This document shows, one piece after another, positions 3,711-19,247 of a DNA stretch of 22,795 bases (its first letter is position 1; every line of letters starts with the position of its first letter). The position numbers and the translations under genes are program-made. The notes beneath the pieces were generated by a model, which was not told the DNA's origin, did no database searches, and was given only the letters and a program-made list of their open reading frames with translations. The stretch is from the IMG/VR virus record IMGVR_UViG_3300010348_001053, one strand, 5' to 3'. The stretch is from a virus.

Positions 3711-4235
3711 TCAAAACGTCGGCTCCGCGTTCACCGCGTCAAAGTGAGTAGCCACAAATCCGAGATCAACCGCGACCCATTCGTGCTCGCTTGCGCCGAA
3801 CGGCATTTGGTTAAACGAAGCGTTGTAAATCTTCGCTCCAAATATCGCGTTTGCATCGTCCTGAGGTGCGATAGATCCCCAGAGCATGAAGAACGTGAAC
3901 TTGCTGGTATCCGAGGTAGTACCTCCACCGGCAGAGTTCAGGATCTTCATCGCCCACCAGGTTCCGACGGTCGGATCAAACTTGGCAAAATTGAGTTTTC
4001 CTTCCGTCCGTGCTTTACATCGGGCCACCGCCAACCGCTTGATAGAGTCCATTGCATAGAGTTCTTTGTAATCGAACGTAGCTTTGAAACTCCATCCCGA
4101 AACGGCTGCGATCTTCGTGCCCGAAGCCCATGCCGGAGCGGTCTCGTTAGCGTCAGGATCCGGGTCGTAAAACCCGGTTTGAACCATGACGCCGACTTTG
4201 CTATCCGCCCCGGCAAAATAATAATCTACTGCCAT
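3711..4235 (-). CDS. Tail tube (major tail) protein, paralog 1 (174 aa)
   Basis: Shares YFAGAD, AVSGW, DSI, DPTV..TWWA, DTSK.TFF and PF...E.EW..VD with 3187-3699; promoter motif 32 nt upstream. Confidence 0.75.
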   Translation of the reverse strand: MAVDYYFAGADSKVGVMVQTGFYDPDPDANETAPAWASGTKIAAVSGWSFKATFDYKELYAMDSIKRLAVARCKARTEGKLNFAKFDPTVGTWWAMKILNSAGGGTTSDTSKFTFFMLWGSIAPQDDANAIFGAKIYNASFNQMPFGASEHEWVAVDLGFVATHFDAVNAEPTF

Positions 4236-4261
4236 TTACGGTTAAATGACAGTTGGAATAG

Positions 4262-4280
4262 ATAAACGGGAAATAAAAAA
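4262..4280 (-). promoter_or_regulatory. Viral promoter motif (with oligo-T) upstream of tail tube 1
   Basis: TTTTTTATTTCCCGTTTAT; 32 nt to ATG 4235. Confidence 0.75.
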
Positions 4281-4292
4281 GAAGAAATGATG

Positions 4293-4367
4293 TAACCTTA
4301 CCTTACCCAACCCCGCCATATCCAACCTCACCTGACCCCTCCTGTCCACACCCCTCCAAACCGGACC
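4293..4367 (-). ncRNA. GG(Y)-NN pentamer array, 15 units (candidate VIPR-type guide RNA)
   Basis: Minus strand: GGTCC GGTTT GGAGG GGTGT GGACA GGAGG GGTCA GGTGA GGTTG GATAT GGCGG GGTTG GGTAA GGTAA GGTTA. 14 of 15 units start GG and 11 of 15 start GGY, with the last two bases variable. Begins 15 nt after the stop of 4383-4767 and ends before a T-rich tract. The repeat is directly seen; the RNA function is inferred. Confidence 0.7.
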
Positions 4368-4382
4368 AGAACCCCGGCCGAT

Positions 4383-4767
4383 TCACATCAGACCGGTTTC
4401 ATGCAGTTTATTGAGTACTTCTTTAGCAGTAAATTTTTCTCCGAATCGGATAACCATCCATCCTTCTTTCCGGAGAATCATATCTCTGAATTGGTCACGT
4501 TTTTTTTGCTTTGGATGATGAATGCCAGTTGGTCCCATCGGTTTCAATGGCAATCTTGTTTGTGTGAGTGGTATCAAGATATATCGCGAAATCAATCACG
4601 AATCCTGACCGGGTAGATACCTGTTCCTGGAAATCGATATTGAGAGATGAGAGTATCTTACTCATCGCCTCTTCAAGACATGTCTTTGTTGATGTCTGAC
4701 CAATAGAGTTTGCCGCGTGCATCAAAAGTGGTTTGATCCCTTTCAGATGCACCGTCACAGGTTGCAG
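4383..4767 (-). pseudogene. RAMP/Vipr-like N-terminus fused to a DUF559/Vsr-like PD-(D/E)xK endonuclease, split by a frameshift in an A8 tract
   Basis: The 4495-4758 frame gives VTVHLKGIKPLLMH...EEAMSKIL...FQEQ...GFVIDFAI...KIAIETDGTNWH; the 4383-4595 frame continues KKRDQFRDMILRKEGWMVIRF. Removing one A from 4500-4507 joins them into about 124-127 aa. In-frame CTG at 4767 may be a mutated or alternative start (MQPVTVHLKG...). Confidence 0.75.
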
Positions 4768-4793
4768 TTATTCTGAAAGAATCTTTAGAATAA
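4768..4793. repeat. 26-bp imperfect palindrome
   Basis: TTATTCT-G-AAAG-AAT-CTTT-AGAATAA fills the entire gap between the tail terminator stop (4794) and the CTG at 4767. Confidence 0.7.
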
Positions 4794-5288
4794 TTACATG
4801 GTATGCATCGTAACCTGGAATCGAACCGACCAGACATGAAGGATATAATCTCTAACCTGATGATATCCGACCTCTAAAACCGGATTCACGCAGTATGCTT
4901 TAATAGATCGGGTTGTATCTACTTTCCCATCCTCATCAAAATAAATTCCAGATACGGCCTGATTTGAAACGGAAAACAAATCCACTACTGCATATCCGTA
5001 ATTCCGAGTTGTTCTGAGTAAATCAGGGACATTTGCACCTTTATACACTCCCGAAACAATTACACTAAACTCATGTTTTCGAGGAGTATTTGACATGTGT
5101 GTCGTTATTTTGTCTCCTCCTTCTAAAAGAGGAGTGATATAGAAACTTGGAAAAACCCGGATTCCTGCGGGCTGTTCGTCGCCTTCAATCATCCTCATCC
5201 CTGTAGTTCCTCCTAATAATGTGATATTAGTTTCAATCCGGCTTTTCATAGCATCTATGATTGAATTTACGTCTTCAGATGTTGGCAT
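4794..5288 (-). CDS. Probable tail terminator / tail completion protein (164 aa)
   Basis: Position after the neck genes; lambda gpU / SPP1 gp17-like pattern (N-terminal helix, P.F.I strand, C-terminal HVWSVRFQV strand); SD GGAGG. Confidence 0.55.
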   Translation of the reverse strand: MPTSEDVNSIIDAMKSRIETNITLLGGTTGMRMIEGDEQPAGIRVFPSFYITPLLEGGDKITTHMSNTPRKHEFSVIVSGVYKGANVPDLLRTTRNYGYAVVDLFSVSNQAVSGIYFDEDGKVDTTRSIKAYCVNPVLEVGYHQVRDYILHVWSVRFQVTMHTM

Positions 5289-6375: not shown

Positions 6376-6394
6376 ATAAACGGGAAATAAAAAA
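6376..6394 (-). promoter_or_regulatory. Viral promoter motif upstream of head-tail adaptor
   Basis: TTTTTTATTTCCCGTTTAT; 31 nt to ATG 6350. Confidence 0.75.
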
Positions 6395-9985: not shown

Positions 9986-10393
9986 TCAACCGGGGGAGAA
10001 ATTGCGGTCTTGTTCCTGAATATATCGTTGAATTGTGTCAGATGACACGTTGCCTGCTGTACCCACATAATAACTTGGATTCCAAATAGATCCTTTCCTA
10101 AACATCGTTCTTAATTCAGGATATACAGAATACAGTCGTTTAGCAGAAACACCTTTTAAAATCTTGATAACTCCTGTAGGACTTTCGTATGGAGGAGTTG
10201 AAAGAAACAGATGGATATGGTCTGGCATAATCTTGAGTTCGAGAATATCCCAGTTTTTAGTTAGACATATTGTTCTAATAGTTTTCTCCAGTTCTTCTGC
10301 TATATGTTGAATTAAAATCTGTTTCCGGTATTTCGGACACCATACAAAATGATAATTGATCAGATATACAGCAGACGAGATTTTCTTTTCCAT
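9986..10393 (-). CDS. tnpA: IS200-type Y1 HUH transposase (135 aa)
   Basis: YHFVWCPKYR, HUH motif DHIHL, catalytic Tyr in IQRYIQEQ. Confidence 0.95.
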   Translation of the reverse strand: MEKKISSAVYLINYHFVWCPKYRKQILIQHIAEELEKTIRTICLTKNWDILELKIMPDHIHLFLSTPPYESPTGVIKILKGVSAKRLYSVYPELRTMFRKGSIWNPSYYVGTAGNVSSDTIQRYIQEQDRNFSPG

Positions 10394-10432
10394 ACCATAA
10401 GGTATTTGTTTTTGTAGAACATATGATTATGC

Positions 10433-11509
10433 ATGCAGAGATCAGTAACGATCTGGATCCCGAAATCAGACGATTTAGTGGATACTATCGTTCAGTATAA
10501 CTCTGCATGTAACGATTGTTTGAAATGGGGATTTGGAAATAAGACTTATAACAAGTCGAAAATTCACAAAGCAACATACGAAGATATTAGAACCAGATAT
10601 CCAGATCTCCAATCTTCTTTAGTATGTGCTGCAAGAGATCAAGCAGCAGATATGCTAAAGCGGGAAAAACTCAAACGGTTTCCGAAAAAGAAGACATTTT
10701 CAGGCATTCGATATAACGCTCGTACAATATCTGTATCTGCAGATGGATCAAAAGTATCTCTCTCAACTATTGCAGGAAGATACAGATTTGATCTGAATAT
10801 CCCCAAATATTTTCAGAAGTATGGAACAGGAAAACTCTGTGCAGCAACCATGTCTTGTCAGAACGATAAGATTAAACTGGTCCTGAATTTCGAGTTTAAT
10901 CCGATTCAGAAATGTGAAAATTCAAAAGTATTGGGGATAGATAGAGGAATCATTAATCCGGTTGTTACTTCCGATAACGGTTTTTTTAACTCGAAAAAAC
11001 TTCGATCAGTGAAAGGAAGATATCAGTACCAGAGAAGGAAACTTCAACAGAAAGGCACTCGATCTGCAAAACGAAGATTAAAACAGATCTCGCAGAAAGA
11101 GACTCGGTTTGTAACTGATATGAATCACTGTATAAGCAAACAGATCGCAGATTCCGATTTTGGAATATTTGTTCTTGAGAAACTGGAAATAAAACGATCC
11201 AAGAAAGTGGGGAAGAAGTTCAATCGCAAACTGGGTAACTGGTCGTTTGCTCAATTCTCAAAATTGCTTGAGTATAAAGCAGAAGATAGGGGTAAGATCG
11301 TAATCTATATAGATCCAAGATACACTTCTCAAAAATGTTCAGTTTGTGGAAACACTGAAAAATCTAACCGAAAAGGATCAAAATTTATCTGTAAAAAATG
11401 TCAGTTTTCTCTTAATGCCGATCTGAATGCTGCTAGAAACATTGCTCAATTGGGTATATCTCAAATGAGTAGGCTGCTTGTCAACCAGCCAACCGTAGCG
11501 TCCTGTTAA
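10433..11509 (+). CDS. tnpB: RNA-guided endonuclease TnpB (358 aa)
   Basis: RuvC residues GIDRG / VLEKL / NADLNAARNI; zinc finger CSVC...CKKC. Confidence 0.95.
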   Translation: MQRSVTIWIPKSDDLVDTIVQYNSACNDCLKWGFGNKTYNKSKIHKATYEDIRTRYPDLQSSLVCAARDQAADMLKREKLKRFPKKKTFSGIRYNARTISVSADGSKVSLSTIAGRYRFDLNIPKYFQKYGTGKLCAATMSCQNDKIKLVLNFEFNPIQKCENSKVLGIDRGIINPVVTSDNGFFNSKKLRSVKGRYQYQRRKLQQKGTRSAKRRLKQISQKETRFVTDMNHCISKQIADSDFGIFVLEKLEIKRSKKVGKKFNRKLGNWSFAQFSKLLEYKAEDRGKIVIYIDPRYTSQKCSVCGNTEKSNRKGSKFICKKCQFSLNADLNAARNIAQLGISQMSRLLVNQPTVASC

Positions 11510-18043: not shown

Positions 18044-19247
18044 ATCAATAACCAACAACTAAACCGTTGGCTTGCACTTCAAATTCTCTTTCGAGCAGAG
18101 TGCTATAGGCTGATTGACAACAGCCCTTTGAGCAATGTTTTTAGCAGCATTAATGTCAGCATTTTCAGTATGTCCACATTCCAAACATACAAATTCAGAT
18201 TGGGATTTGCGGTTATTCTTATCGATATATCCACAAACGGAACACTGCCTAGACGTGTTTTGTGGATCAACCAGATGAACAAGAACTCCTGCTAATTTAG
18301 ACTTATACTGGATGAACTGACTTAACTCTCCAAATGCCCATTTTGAATGTTCTTCACGCTGCTCCTTTCTAACAGTTACTTTGTCCCTGATCCCTGAAAG
18401 GTCTTCTATAGCAATAGATGACAAAGTGCCTTTCGCAAGTTGAACAACATTCTTTGAGACACAATGATTCTGGTCTTTTTTGAATCTCCGTTCTCTTTTG
18501 GATAGTTTCTTGAGATGTTTCTTAGCATCCCAAGTTCCTACTGATTGAAGTTTCCCTTTGATCTTCTGATACTTTCTGCGAACCTTTTTACACAGATCTC
18601 CTGAAAATACCTGACCTTCAGAAGTTGTTGCAAGGTTCACAATTCCCAGATCAATTCCAATTACCTTGTCTGAATTAATTGGTTCATCTTCTGGAACATC
18701 GCAGACGATCAGAAGATAAAACTGTTTGTCACGATAAACTAAATCTACCTGACCTTTTACACGTTCAAGATCTAATTCTCTGTAATTACCACAGACGAAG
18801 TTAATCTTCTCCCGTTTCTCAAGAGTCAGGATAGATACGATATCCATTGATTTGAAGGTTAGGTTCCTCTGATCGTATTGAATTGCTCCATGAGGGTTGA
18901 ACTCATGTTGAACCTTTTTATCAACCTTATACGATTCAGAAACCTTCCCTATGGCTCTGACAACCATCTGGGCAGATAACCCAAACTTTTCCTTCACATC
19001 GTAATAAACAAGTTTATGTAATCCTATCTTACCAAATGTTCTGAACTCAAAAGCAACTTCTGAAATATAATTGCAAGATGCGTTGTATTGTTCCATCGTT
19101 TTAAGCAAAATCGCCCTTTGCTCATCATTAGGAACTAACTTCAACTGCAATGTCAGAAGCATATATTGATCTATGTATTCAATACAGATAATACTTATGC
19201 AGCATTCCTCCTACCCCTAAAAGAGTGGGCCTCCTGCTGCAATTATC
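18044..19247 (-). mobile_element. IS200/IS605-family element, tnpB-only (IS1341-like), non-autonomous
   Basis: Left end GCAGCAG-GAGG-CCCACTC-TTTTAG-GGGTAGG...TGCTGC; guide GAGG predicts target TCxC, matched by TCAC at 19251-19248. Right end CAAG-CCAACGGTTTAGTTGTTGG-TTA-TTGAT. Confidence 0.88.
18059..19162 (-). CDS. tnpB: RNA-guided endonuclease TnpB (367 aa)
   Basis: N-terminal HTH (LKLVPNDEQ...L), RuvC GIDLG / IAIEDL / NADINAAKNI, zinc finger CSVC...CLEC. Confidence 0.95.
   Translation of the reverse strand: MLLTLQLKLVPNDEQRAILLKTMEQYNASCNYISEVAFEFRTFGKIGLHKLVYYDVKEKFGLSAQMVVRAIGKVSESYKVDKKVQHEFNPHGAIQYDQRNLTFKSMDIVSILTLEKREKINFVCGNYRELDLERVKGQVDLVYRDKQFYLLIVCDVPEDEPINSDKVIGIDLGIVNLATTSEGQVFSGDLCKKVRRKYQKIKGKLQSVGTWDAKKHLKKLSKRERRFKKDQNHCVSKNVVQLAKGTLSSIAIEDLSGIRDKVTVRKEQREEHSKWAFGELSQFIQYKSKLAGVLVHLVDPQNTSRQCSVCGYIDKNNRKSQSEFVCLECGHTENADINAAKNIAQRAVVNQPIALCSKENLKCKPTV

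What the first reader, a model, noticed from the sequence alone, without database searches (positions are those of the whole stretch)
4293..4793. VIPR-like locus in the tail module: GG(Y)-NN guide array behind a RAMP-like leader fused to a DUF559/Vsr nuclease
Seen: a 75-nt array of 15 pentamers with a fixed GG(T/C/A) and a variable dinucleotide (CC TT GG GT CA GG CA GA TG AT GG TG AA AA TA), starting 15 nt after the stop of a gene beginning (L/M)QPVTVHLKGIKPLLMH. The cassette interrupts an otherwise standard terminator-tube junction. Known, recalled from memory and to be verified: the [VI]x[IL]xGxxPLLMH strand is the N-terminus of a widespread viral RAMP/Cas7-like family found next to such arrays, recently described as VIPR systems, in which the NN dinucleotides read a gapped DNA target. 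Unusual here: after about 25 residues the protein is not a ~200-aa RAMP but a ~100-aa DUF559/Vsr-type PD-(D/E)xK nuclease (DFAI...IAIETDG..WH...RD..L...GW.VIRF). Inference: either an undescribed nuclease-armed variant (guide plus nuclease, with the RAMP filament supplied in trans from elsewhere in the genome or by a co-infecting virus) or a VIPR locus whose core was displaced by a nuclease. In an archaeal virus either case is notable.
Basis: partly seen in the sequence, partly recalled or inferred. Interest (0 to 1): 0.92.

Follow-up and report, generated by a model that had tools for sequence, protein, structure and literature searches.

The report
Decayed viral VIPR locus, orphan guide
This is the remnant of a VIPR cassette (a CRISPR-like, RNA-guided DNA-binding system of viruses): a 584-base deletion removed the guide-binding protein, but one guide RNA gene survives, and it spells a conserved motif of the tail-tube gene of related viruses better than that of its own.

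Summary
On the minus strand, 4367..4293 carries 15 pentamers, 14 starting with GG, far beyond chance.

The "RAMP leader fused to a nuclease" is real, but it is a deletion scar. A near-identical metagenome relative (L002) has, before the same tube gene, a full 184-aa Vipr, a 19-unit guide, an intact 106-aa DUF559 nuclease and a 13-unit guide. The window lacks L002 213-796. That joins Vipr codon 32 in frame to nuclease codon 8. An A8 tract (A7 in L002) also breaks the nuclease.

The 184-aa family matches the solved SUSP1 Vipr (E 5e-18). This Vipr subclade carries the nuclease just downstream in 19 loci.

Under the published 1-nt-skip rule:
- Both L002 guides hit the window's genes flanking the cassette, in codon register (27/32 and 19/20).
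- The window's orphan guide hits the tube gene of a cassette-free relative at 20/24.
- It hits its own tube gene at only 16/24.

Best reading: a VIPR-null virus with a solo vrRNA, a state already published for SUSP1-like phages. New here are the viral nuclease-bearing subclade and the aiming of guides at the cassette's own flanks. Whether the guide is active is untested. This scan has noted VIPR loci on other DNA before.

The parts
4293..4367 (-). vrRNA-type repeat tract: 15 GGN-NN pentamers. Units 1-12 are the variable guide; units 13-15 are conserved terminal units.
   Evidence: The same position and flanks as array 2 of L002.
4368..4382 (-). 15-nt stretch between the nuclease stop and the array, holding a CCGGGG-type motif. 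Related arrays have CCGGGATT here.
   Evidence: Comparison of array flanks in 15 loci.
4275..4287 (-). T-rich run directly after the array. A likely transcript end, conserved in L002 and in the cassette-free relative L066.
4262..4272 (-). Virus-specific promoter motif of the tube gene. The next copy upstream on this strand is at 6376-6386, so the array would sit at the 3' end of the adaptor-neck-terminator transcript.
   Evidence: 9 copies against 0.58 expected.
4383..4683 (-). DUF559/MTES_1575 nuclease gene remnant. It corresponds to codons 8-106 of the intact 106-aa family and is broken by a frameshift. A conserved internal Met codon lies at 4665..4663.
4500..4507 (-). A8 tract that shifts the nuclease frame. 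The intact L002 gene has A7. Other contigs of the deletion lineage read as A8 or A9.
4683..4759 (-). vipr remnant, codons 8-32 of the 184-aa Vipr of L002. Base 4683 is the deletion junction, with 1 nt of microhomology.
   Evidence: blastn at 97% over 77 nt; Vipr HMM E 2.4e-5.
4760..4793 (-). 34-nt spacer between the terminator-position gene's stop and the vipr remnant. It has no homology to L002 or L066 and its origin is unknown.
3759..3803 (-). The orphan guide's cognate site in the window's own tube1 gene, from codon 145. The match is weak: 17/30 over all units, 16/24 over units 1-12.
3948..3986 (-). Site in tube1 (codons 84-96) matched by L002 guide 2: 19/20 over its first 10 units, in codon register.
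5136..5192 (-). Site in the terminator-position gene (codons 33-51) matched by L002 guide 1: 27/32 over 16 units and 31/38 over 19, in codon register.
3711..4235 (-). Putative tail tube gene 1, the gene to the right of the cassette.
   Evidence: Gene order; homologues.
4794..5288 (-). Putative tail terminator/completion gene, the gene to the left of the cassette.
   Evidence: Gene order; homologue in L066.

Best explanation
Shown:
- The locus is a deletion derivative of a four-part VIPR cassette: vipr, guide 1, a 106-aa DUF559/Vsr-like nuclease and guide 2.
- In this virus family the cassette is inserted between the stop codon of the terminator-position gene and the T-run and promoter of the tube gene.
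- A 584-bp deletion with 1 nt of microhomology removed most of vipr, guide 1 and the start of the nuclease gene.
- An A8 tract then leaves the nuclease out of frame.
- What remains intact is one vrRNA-type gene, with its upstream flank, its conserved terminal units and a T-run.

Inferred:
- The virus is now VIPR-null with a solo vrRNA, transcribed as the 3' end of the neck/terminator operon.
- The RNA can act only if a co-infecting VIPR-positive relative supplies Vipr.
- Vipr protomers would then coat the GGN triplets and present the NN pairs. Read with one skipped base, these spell the first two letters of each codon of a conserved C-terminal tube-protein motif.
- The match is good for relatives (79-83%) and poor for the virus's own gene (57-67%). 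The guide would therefore send a rival's silencing or cutting machinery to the rival's, or a third virus's, tube gene.

My odds: about 0.95 for the anatomy and history, and about 0.45 that the guide is still active.
For: VIPR is a published system, and its rules are set out in bioRxiv 10.64898/2026.04.26.720920.

The intact relative:
- L002 shows vipr, a 19-unit array, the nuclease and a 13-unit array before the same promoter and tube gene.
- Window 4759..4683 equals L002 136-212, and window 4683..4134 equals L002 797-1335.

Identity of the protein:
- A profile of the 184-aa family hits PDB 36pp_D, 'SUSP1 Vipr protein', over its full length with E 5.3e-18.
- The AlphaFold model has pLDDT 87.8, and the top Foldseek hits are Csm3/Cas7.

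The nuclease as a regular partner:
- It lies directly downstream of vipr in 12 metagenome loci and in 7 of 7 IMG/VR loci of the closest Vipr clade.
- It is absent from more distant Vipr loci, apart from a partial hit upstream in L047.

The deletion lineage is real:
- The fused, truncated ORF occurs as six sequence variants on at least 9 contigs from JGI and ENA.
- All six are out of frame, reading as A8 or A9.

The empty site:
- L066 has the terminator stop followed at once by the same T-run and promoter.

Targets:
- The orphan guide matches 20/24 on real DNA of L066's tube gene at codon 145. The largest of 200 shuffled unit orders was 17.
- An 18-base gapped pattern taken from the guide has a single exact hit in all of IMG/VR, and it is that same site.
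- The guide's match to the window's own tube gene is 16/24.

Precedent:
- VIPR-null phages that keep solo vrRNAs after a vipr-vap1 deletion, with self-match lower than non-self match, are described in bioRxiv 10.64898/2026.10.15.759431.
Against: - There are no expression data.
- There is no promoter motif between 6386 and the array, so a discrete RNA would need processing.
- Unit 10 is GAT, and the upstream motif differs from that of L002.
- The three mismatched units on the best target are consecutive and central (units 4-6). That might block binding.
- No target reaches 100%.
- No Vipr is encoded in these 22.8 kb, and the rest of the genome, if any, is not held.
- The nuclease is dead in every sampled member of the lineage, which fits general decay of the cassette.
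- The guide region shows no significant RNA fold (z 0.84).
Confidence: 0.6

Rival explanations
1. Pure relic. The cassette is decaying: vipr is deleted and the nuclease frameshifted. The surviving array is simply not yet eroded, has no function and is loaded by no Vipr.
For: - The nuclease is out of frame in all six variants of the lineage, with two different tract lengths.
- The remnant lacks a start codon and ribosome-binding site.
- One unit is degenerate and the upstream motif is altered.
- The best target match is only 83%.
Against: - The array keeps 14 of 15 GG anchors, its terminal units and its T-run.
- GAT units also occur inside arrays of intact loci.
- The guide matches relatives better than self, as published for functional solo vrRNAs.
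- The lineage is widespread and has diversified.
Confidence: 0.35
2. Self-directed regulation. The guides of this cassette family act on the carrier's own terminator and tube genes as programmable roadblocks that tune tail-gene transcription. They are not aimed at rivals.
For: - The tube motif read by L002 guide 2 is nearly invariant in all close tube homologues. These include two whose first 34 residues equal L002's, so L002 may match itself.
- All three guides hit within about 500 bp of the cassette.
- A distant locus (L065) has a 20/20 self-match beside its own vipr.
Against: - A nuclease partner makes self-targeting costly.
- The window's own guide matches its own gene worst.
- Other nuclease-clade loci show no significant self-matches.
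- The published surveys found no self-targets at 80% or more.
Confidence: 0.1
3. One reading: a purpose-built protein with a RAMP leader joined to a DUF559 nuclease, a new nuclease-armed effector.
For: The fusion is in frame.
Against: - Intact homologues of the nuclease are 97-109 aa and lack the leader.
- The leader equals codons 8-32 of a separate 184-aa Vipr gene in L002.
- There is no start codon or ribosome-binding site.
- The ORF is frameshifted in every copy.
Confidence: 0.02
4. A chance G-rich repeat, G-quadruplex DNA or an assembly artefact.
For: The tract is G-rich, and TRF does not call it.
Against: - Phase-locked score 12 against a largest of 5 in simulations.
- Homologous arrays lie beside homologous genes in more than 19 loci.
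- The same fused ORF appears in independent assemblies.
Confidence: 0.02

Closest known systems
VIPR systems (Vipr plus vrRNA; reference type II system of Escherichia phage SUSP1; bioRxiv 10.64898/2026.04.26.720920 and .720927)
   Same: - GGY/NN pentamer guides of 9-16 units.
- A lone RAMP protein of about 185-200 aa. The family of the relative's Vipr matches the solved SUSP1 Vipr with E 5e-18.
- A two-gene operon, vipr plus an accessory gene.
- Targets that obey the 1-nt-skip rule, with the skipped base on the codon wobble position.
- Aimed at related mobile elements.
   Different: - The window has no Vipr, only codons 8-32.
- The accessory gene is a DUF559/Vsr-like nuclease, not a DNA-binding Vap1.
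- One guide lies between vipr and the nuclease and overlaps the nuclease start codon.
- There is no long structured 3' tail, only conserved terminal units and a T-run.
- GGA units are common.
VIPR-null phages with solo vrRNAs (SUSP1 family; bioRxiv 10.64898/2026.10.15.759431)
   Same: - vipr was lost by a defined deletion relative to VIPR-positive near-relatives.
- One guide is kept in place.
- The guide's match to self is lower than its match to others.
- The lineage is inherited and widespread.
   Different: - A different virus family and Vipr subclade.
- The deletion spares the accessory gene, which then decays by a homopolymer frameshift.
- The guide's target is a tail-tube gene next to the cassette site, not vipr, vrRNAs or satellites.
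Nuclease-encoding VIPR types III and V (same paper)
   Same: Vipr is paired with a predicted nuclease as its accessory gene.
   Different: - Those types are described as enriched in cellular defence islands, and the domain shown for them is HNH.
- Here the loci lie on viral contigs, beside tape-measure or replication genes, and the nuclease is PD-(D/E)xK, DUF559.
- Whether this clade is among the paper's 667 systems could not be checked, because its tables are not held.
Free-standing homing endonucleases of phages: I-Bth0305I catalytic domain (PDB 3r3p); T4 seg/mob 'intronless homing' (the T4 case is from my own knowledge)
   Same: - The nuclease profile's best solved relative is 3r3p, 'Mobile intron protein' (E 3.7e-6).
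- The cassette sits between two conserved genes.
- A cassette-free relative shows the empty site.
- The recognition sites lie in the flanking genes, within 310-500 bp of the insertion point.
   Different: - Recognition would be by RNA guides on a Vipr filament, not by a protein DNA-binding domain, which this 106-aa nuclease lacks.
- Neither cleavage nor copying of the cassette has been shown.
Cas7/Csm3 backbone subunits of class 1 CRISPR effectors
   Same: The fold of the relative's Vipr: top Foldseek hits, probability 1.00.
   Different: There are no CRISPR repeats, no other cas genes, and the guides are gapped.

Membership tests
VIPR system | A Vipr protein (minimal RAMP with G-loop and thumb) encoded at the locus | tested here: not met
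   Only codons 8-32 remain, at 4759..4683. The Vipr HMM finds nothing else in the window. The relative L002 has the full gene, and its family matches the solved SUSP1 Vipr.
VIPR system | A vrRNA gene: at least 4, typically 9-16, tandem YNNGG / GGY-NN units with fixed GG and variable NN | tested here: met
   15 units, 14 with GG. The NN pairs differ completely from the homologous array of L002, while the flanks are conserved.
VIPR system | A conserved 3' tail after the repeat tract | tested here: inconclusive
   The terminal units and the T-run are shared with L002. No significant fold was found and there is no Rfam family.
VIPR system | An accessory (vap) gene next to vipr | tested here: met
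   The DUF559 nuclease lies directly downstream of vipr in 19 related loci. In the window it is present but frameshifted.
VIPR system | A natural target obeying the 1-nt-skip rule at 80% NN match or more | tested here: met
   20/24 (83%) on the tube gene of L066, in codon register. The largest shuffled score was 17. It is the single exact hit in IMG/VR for the 18-base gapped pattern.
VIPR system | The vrRNA is transcribed and forms a complex with Vipr | not testable with these tools
   No RNA data are available.
VIPR-null solo-vrRNA virus | vipr lost by deletion relative to a VIPR-positive near-relative, with the guide kept in place | tested here: met
   L002 213-796 is missing, with the junction at window 4683. 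The lineage is seen on at least 9 contigs.
VIPR-null solo-vrRNA virus | The guide matches non-self better than self | tested here: met
   Self 16/24, close relatives 19/24, L066 type 20/24.
DUF559 / MTES_1575 (Vsr-like PD-(D/E)xK nuclease) | A profile match above the curated cut-off, with the conserved acidic and His motifs | tested here: met
   The intact homologue P0002 scores 53.7 bits for MTES_1575 (cut-off 38.2) and 31.2 bits for DUF559 (cut-off 20.6). The window copy keeps the motifs in two frames.
DUF559 / MTES_1575 (Vsr-like PD-(D/E)xK nuclease) | An uninterrupted reading frame | tested here: not met
   The A8 tract at 4507..4500 shifts the frame; L002 has A7.

The most novel reading that the evidence does not exclude
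The intact form of this cassette is an RNA-guided homing, or sibling-exclusion, element. Its two guides read conserved codon motifs in the two genes that flank its own insertion site. The bare Vsr/homing-endonuclease-type catalytic domain docks on the Vipr filament and cuts cassette-free or dead-cassette relatives on both sides of the site. Repair from the carrier genome then copies the cassette in. On this reading the window virus is both a decayed carrier and a current target, and its orphan guide is a counter-measure.
Probability: 0.25. Interest if true: 0.9.

Novelty: new variant of a known kind. Interest (0 to 1): 0.66.

Why it matters
VIPR was first described in 2026, and almost all that is known about it comes from type II systems of enterobacterial and Pseudomonas phages, which silence their targets.

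This locus and its relatives add three things:
- Vipr loss with a retained orphan guide has happened independently in an unrelated, uncultivated virus family. That makes 'guides for hire' look general.
- There is a virus-borne Vipr subclade whose constant partner is a minimal nuclease domain, and the nuclease is predicted to dock on Vipr. The discovery paper ties nucleases to host-domesticated types.
- The guides point at the two genes beside the cassette's own insertion site, and an empty-site relative is in hand. This turns the idea of RNA-guided homing or sibling exclusion among viruses into a simple plasmid experiment.

Tried and rejected
- Tandem Repeats Finder does not report the array.
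- No whole genome is held for the window.
The 20,180-bp contig that holds the intact Vipr and nuclease therefore could not be read.
- Pattern scans with the terminator-position protein found no relative in viral contigs or metagenome contigs.
- Exact 10-unit versions of the orphan guide have no hit in IMG/VR.
- The full 15-unit guide finds nothing above chance in the window or in the 600 kb of loci then held: 20/30 against a shuffled mean of 20.1.
- There are no close relatives in GenBank phage records.
- There is no Rfam family and no significant RNA fold.
- Neither Pfam nor PADLOC has a family for the Vipr.
- Guides of other loci show no general self-targeting of their own flanks. An all-against-all test gave only chance-level 18/20 hits, apart from L002 onto the window and the L065 self-match.
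- The AlphaFold model of the tube protein was unusable (pLDDT 44), so no fold search was run on it.
- No held paper mentions vrRNA together with DUF559 or Vsr.
- The discovery paper's supplementary tables are not held, so the VIPR type of this clade could not be assigned.

Full report
**The observation**

On the minus strand, 4367..4293 reads as 15 head-to-tail pentamers, and 14 of them start with GG. Unit 10 is GAT-AT, and three units are GGA rather than GGY. A phase-locked scan scores the tract 12 and finds no other such tract in the window. In 200 Markov simulations the largest score was 5. Tandem Repeats Finder misses it.

The tract starts 15 nt after the stop codon of an ORF. The two frames of that ORF carry the two halves of an MTES_1575/DUF559 nuclease, split at an A8 run (4507..4500). 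Its first 25 residues are not nuclease-like. The neighbours are head-tail adaptor, Neck1-type and tape-measure genes. Two IS200/IS605 elements lie elsewhere in the window.

**VIPR is a published system**

The discovery preprint (10.64898/2026.04.26.720920) describes the following:
- a lone RAMP protein, Vipr;
- vrRNAs of 9-16 GGY/NN units followed by a tail;
- recognition of double-stranded DNA in which one base is skipped between NN pairs, usually the codon wobble position;
- seven types, with accessory vap genes.

A later preprint (10.64898/2026.10.15.759431) describes 346 VIPR-null phages that lost vipr and vap1 by deletion. They keep one or two solo vrRNAs, and those match other elements better than self.

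**The leader is not part of the nuclease**

Thirteen homologues of the nuclease ORF were found. One (P0001) is the window's own truncated, fused form. The other twelve are 97-109 aa, up to 92% identical, and start about 21 residues into the window ORF. None of the twelve has the leader.

**An intact relative**

A scan of metagenome contigs with the nuclease alignment returned 32 loci. L002 (1,335 bp) is nearly identical to the window at this junction. On one strand it has:
- a 184-aa ORF whose residues 8-32 equal the window's leader;
- a 19-unit array;
- an intact 106-aa nuclease with A7, whose ATG lies inside the last array units;
- a 13-unit array;
- the same T-run, promoter motif and tube-gene start as the window.

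By blastn, window 4759..4683 equals L002 136-212 (97%), and window 4683..4134 equals L002 797-1335 (88%). The window therefore lacks L002 213-796, which is 584 bp. The junction has one base of microhomology. It falls on the first position of Vipr codon 33 and of nuclease codon 8, so the fusion is in frame by accident. The window also lacks the vipr start codon, its first seven codons and its GGTGA ribosome-binding site.

**The 184-aa protein is a Vipr**

- It has 35 homologues of about 183 aa and no Pfam family.
- A profile of the family hits PDB 36pp_D, 'SUSP1 Vipr protein', over its full length with E 5.3e-18.
- The AlphaFold model (pLDDT 87.8) finds Csm3/Cas7 subunits first.
- A Vipr HMM hits the window only at 4758..4681 (E 2.4e-5).

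**The nuclease is this subclade's regular partner**

In 12 metagenome loci vipr lies directly upstream of the nuclease on the same strand. Loci without vipr mostly have the nuclease at a contig edge. Distant nuclease homologues have neither vipr nor arrays. In IMG/VR, all 7 Vipr loci at 40% identity or more to L002 carry the nuclease. The 25 more distant loci do not, apart from one partial hit upstream of the arrays in L047.

The contexts are viral: tape-measure genes lie nearby in L035 and L039, and a DNA polymerase gene in L037. The nuclease's best solved relative is 3r3p, 'Mobile intron protein', a bare catalytic domain of the same length.

A complex prediction of Vipr with the nuclease supports binding but does not show it:
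- The median score was 0.70 and the best control 0.00.
- That mark was reached by 58 of 80 solved complexes and by 2 of 110 mismatched pairs. These counts hold only roughly here, because my own alignments were used.
- The three runs scored 0.70, 0.00 and 0.71, and they agree in at least 0% of contacts.
- The partner's pLDDT was at least 72.

The predicted interface uses the nuclease's invariant STRSGFVIDF segment.

**The deletion lineage is real**

The fused, truncated ORF exists as six sequence variants on at least 9 contigs from JGI and ENA, up to 22,795 bp long. Their C-termini correspond to A8 or A9 tracts, and none is in frame. The deletion is therefore inherited. The nuclease is off in every sampled member.

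**The insertion site**

L066, a 75-kb IMG/VR virus whose tube protein is 70% identical, has the same order of adaptor, neck, terminator, tube1 and tube2. It has no cassette. The terminator stop is followed at once by the same T-run and promoter. The cassette is thus an insertion at that exact point.

The promoter motif occurs at 4272..4262, and the next copy upstream is at 6386..6376. The array would therefore lie at the 3' end of the neck/terminator transcript.

**Targets under the 1-nt-skip rule**

| Guide | Target | Match | Control or note |
|---|---|---|---|
| L002 guide 1 | window terminator-position gene, codons 33-51 | 27/32 (31/38 over all units) | z 11.4 against shuffled unit order |
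| L002 guide 2 | window tube1, codons 84-93 | 19/20 | z 8.1 against shuffled unit order |
| L002 guide 1 | L066, homologous site | 25/32 | largest shuffled score 23 |
| L002 guide 2 | L066, homologous site | 17/20 | largest shuffled score 15 |
| window orphan guide | tube protein from residue 145 (144 in a few), own gene | 16/24 (17/30 on DNA) | same site in every tube homologue |
| window orphan guide | close relatives' tube, same site | 19/24 | scored at protein level |
| window orphan guide | L066 tube gene, real DNA, in frame | 20/24 | largest shuffled score 17 |

Both L002 matches on the window are on the sense strand, with the skipped base on the wobble position. An 18-base gapped pattern taken from the orphan guide has one exact hit in all of IMG/VR, and it is this L066 site. 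All three guides therefore point within about 310-500 bp of the cassette's own insertion site.

**Open point**

The motif read by L002 guide 2 is nearly invariant in close tube homologues. These include two whose N-termini equal L002's. L002 may therefore match itself. One variant (P0071) changes two residues inside the footprint. The genome of an L002-type virus is needed to settle this.

**Verdict**

The 'fusion' is a deletion scar in a VIPR-null virus that keeps one orphan guide, a state already published for SUSP1-like phages.

New here are the virus-borne, nuclease-bearing Vipr subclade and the aiming of guides at the cassette's own flanking genes. That leaves room for an RNA-guided homing or sibling-exclusion mechanism. 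Whether the orphan guide is active is not known. The claim that this is an archaeal virus was not tested here. One tube homologue is filed in NCBI under a Bacteroidia MAG, on a 2-kb contig.

Noticed in passing
L065:6598-6662 and L065:5759-5790: In a Candidatus Nanoarchaeia MAG, a 10-unit stretch of the first guide after vipr matches 20/20 a site about 220 bp upstream of its own vipr start, under the 1-nt-skip rule (20/22 with one more unit). This may be self-regulation of the locus.
   Followed up: no
L067:88-171 and L067:461-1794 (IMG/VR contig of L066, about 5-7 kb from its start): The cassette-free relative carries, elsewhere in its genome, a divergent Vipr-like ORF in a 223-aa open frame (E 5e-5 to the Vipr profile). 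With it are a 234-aa partner ORF and short GGA-NN arrays. This looks like a second, different VIPR type in the same virus family.
   Followed up: partly
L002:776-787: The nuclease start codon and its first four codons lie inside the last units of guide array 1. The same bases would therefore serve as vrRNA terminal units and as coding sequence.
   Followed up: no
window 4368-4382; L002:680-692 and 1099-1111; L015, L016: Arrays of this subclade are preceded by a short conserved CCGGG(G)ATT-like motif. It may be a 5' handle or a processing site.
   Followed up: partly
window 9986-11509 and 18059-19162: There are two IS200/IS605-type insertions in the virus: a TnpA plus TnpB pair, and a lone TnpB.
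   Followed up: no
P0071 (tube homologue, 92% identical): This variant changes two residues (T to V, G to S) exactly inside the 10-codon footprint of L002 guide 2. The match drops from 19/20 to 16/20, so it may be an escape or immunity allele.
   Followed up: partly
L047:7469-7621: A distant Vipr locus has a partial DUF559 nuclease hit upstream of its arrays. The nuclease association may therefore reach beyond the close subclade.
   Followed up: no
L002:1-115: The sequence upstream of vipr in L002 has no similarity to the window or to L066. It opens a divergent ORF that runs off the contig, so the intact cassette may hold a further gene.
   Followed up: no
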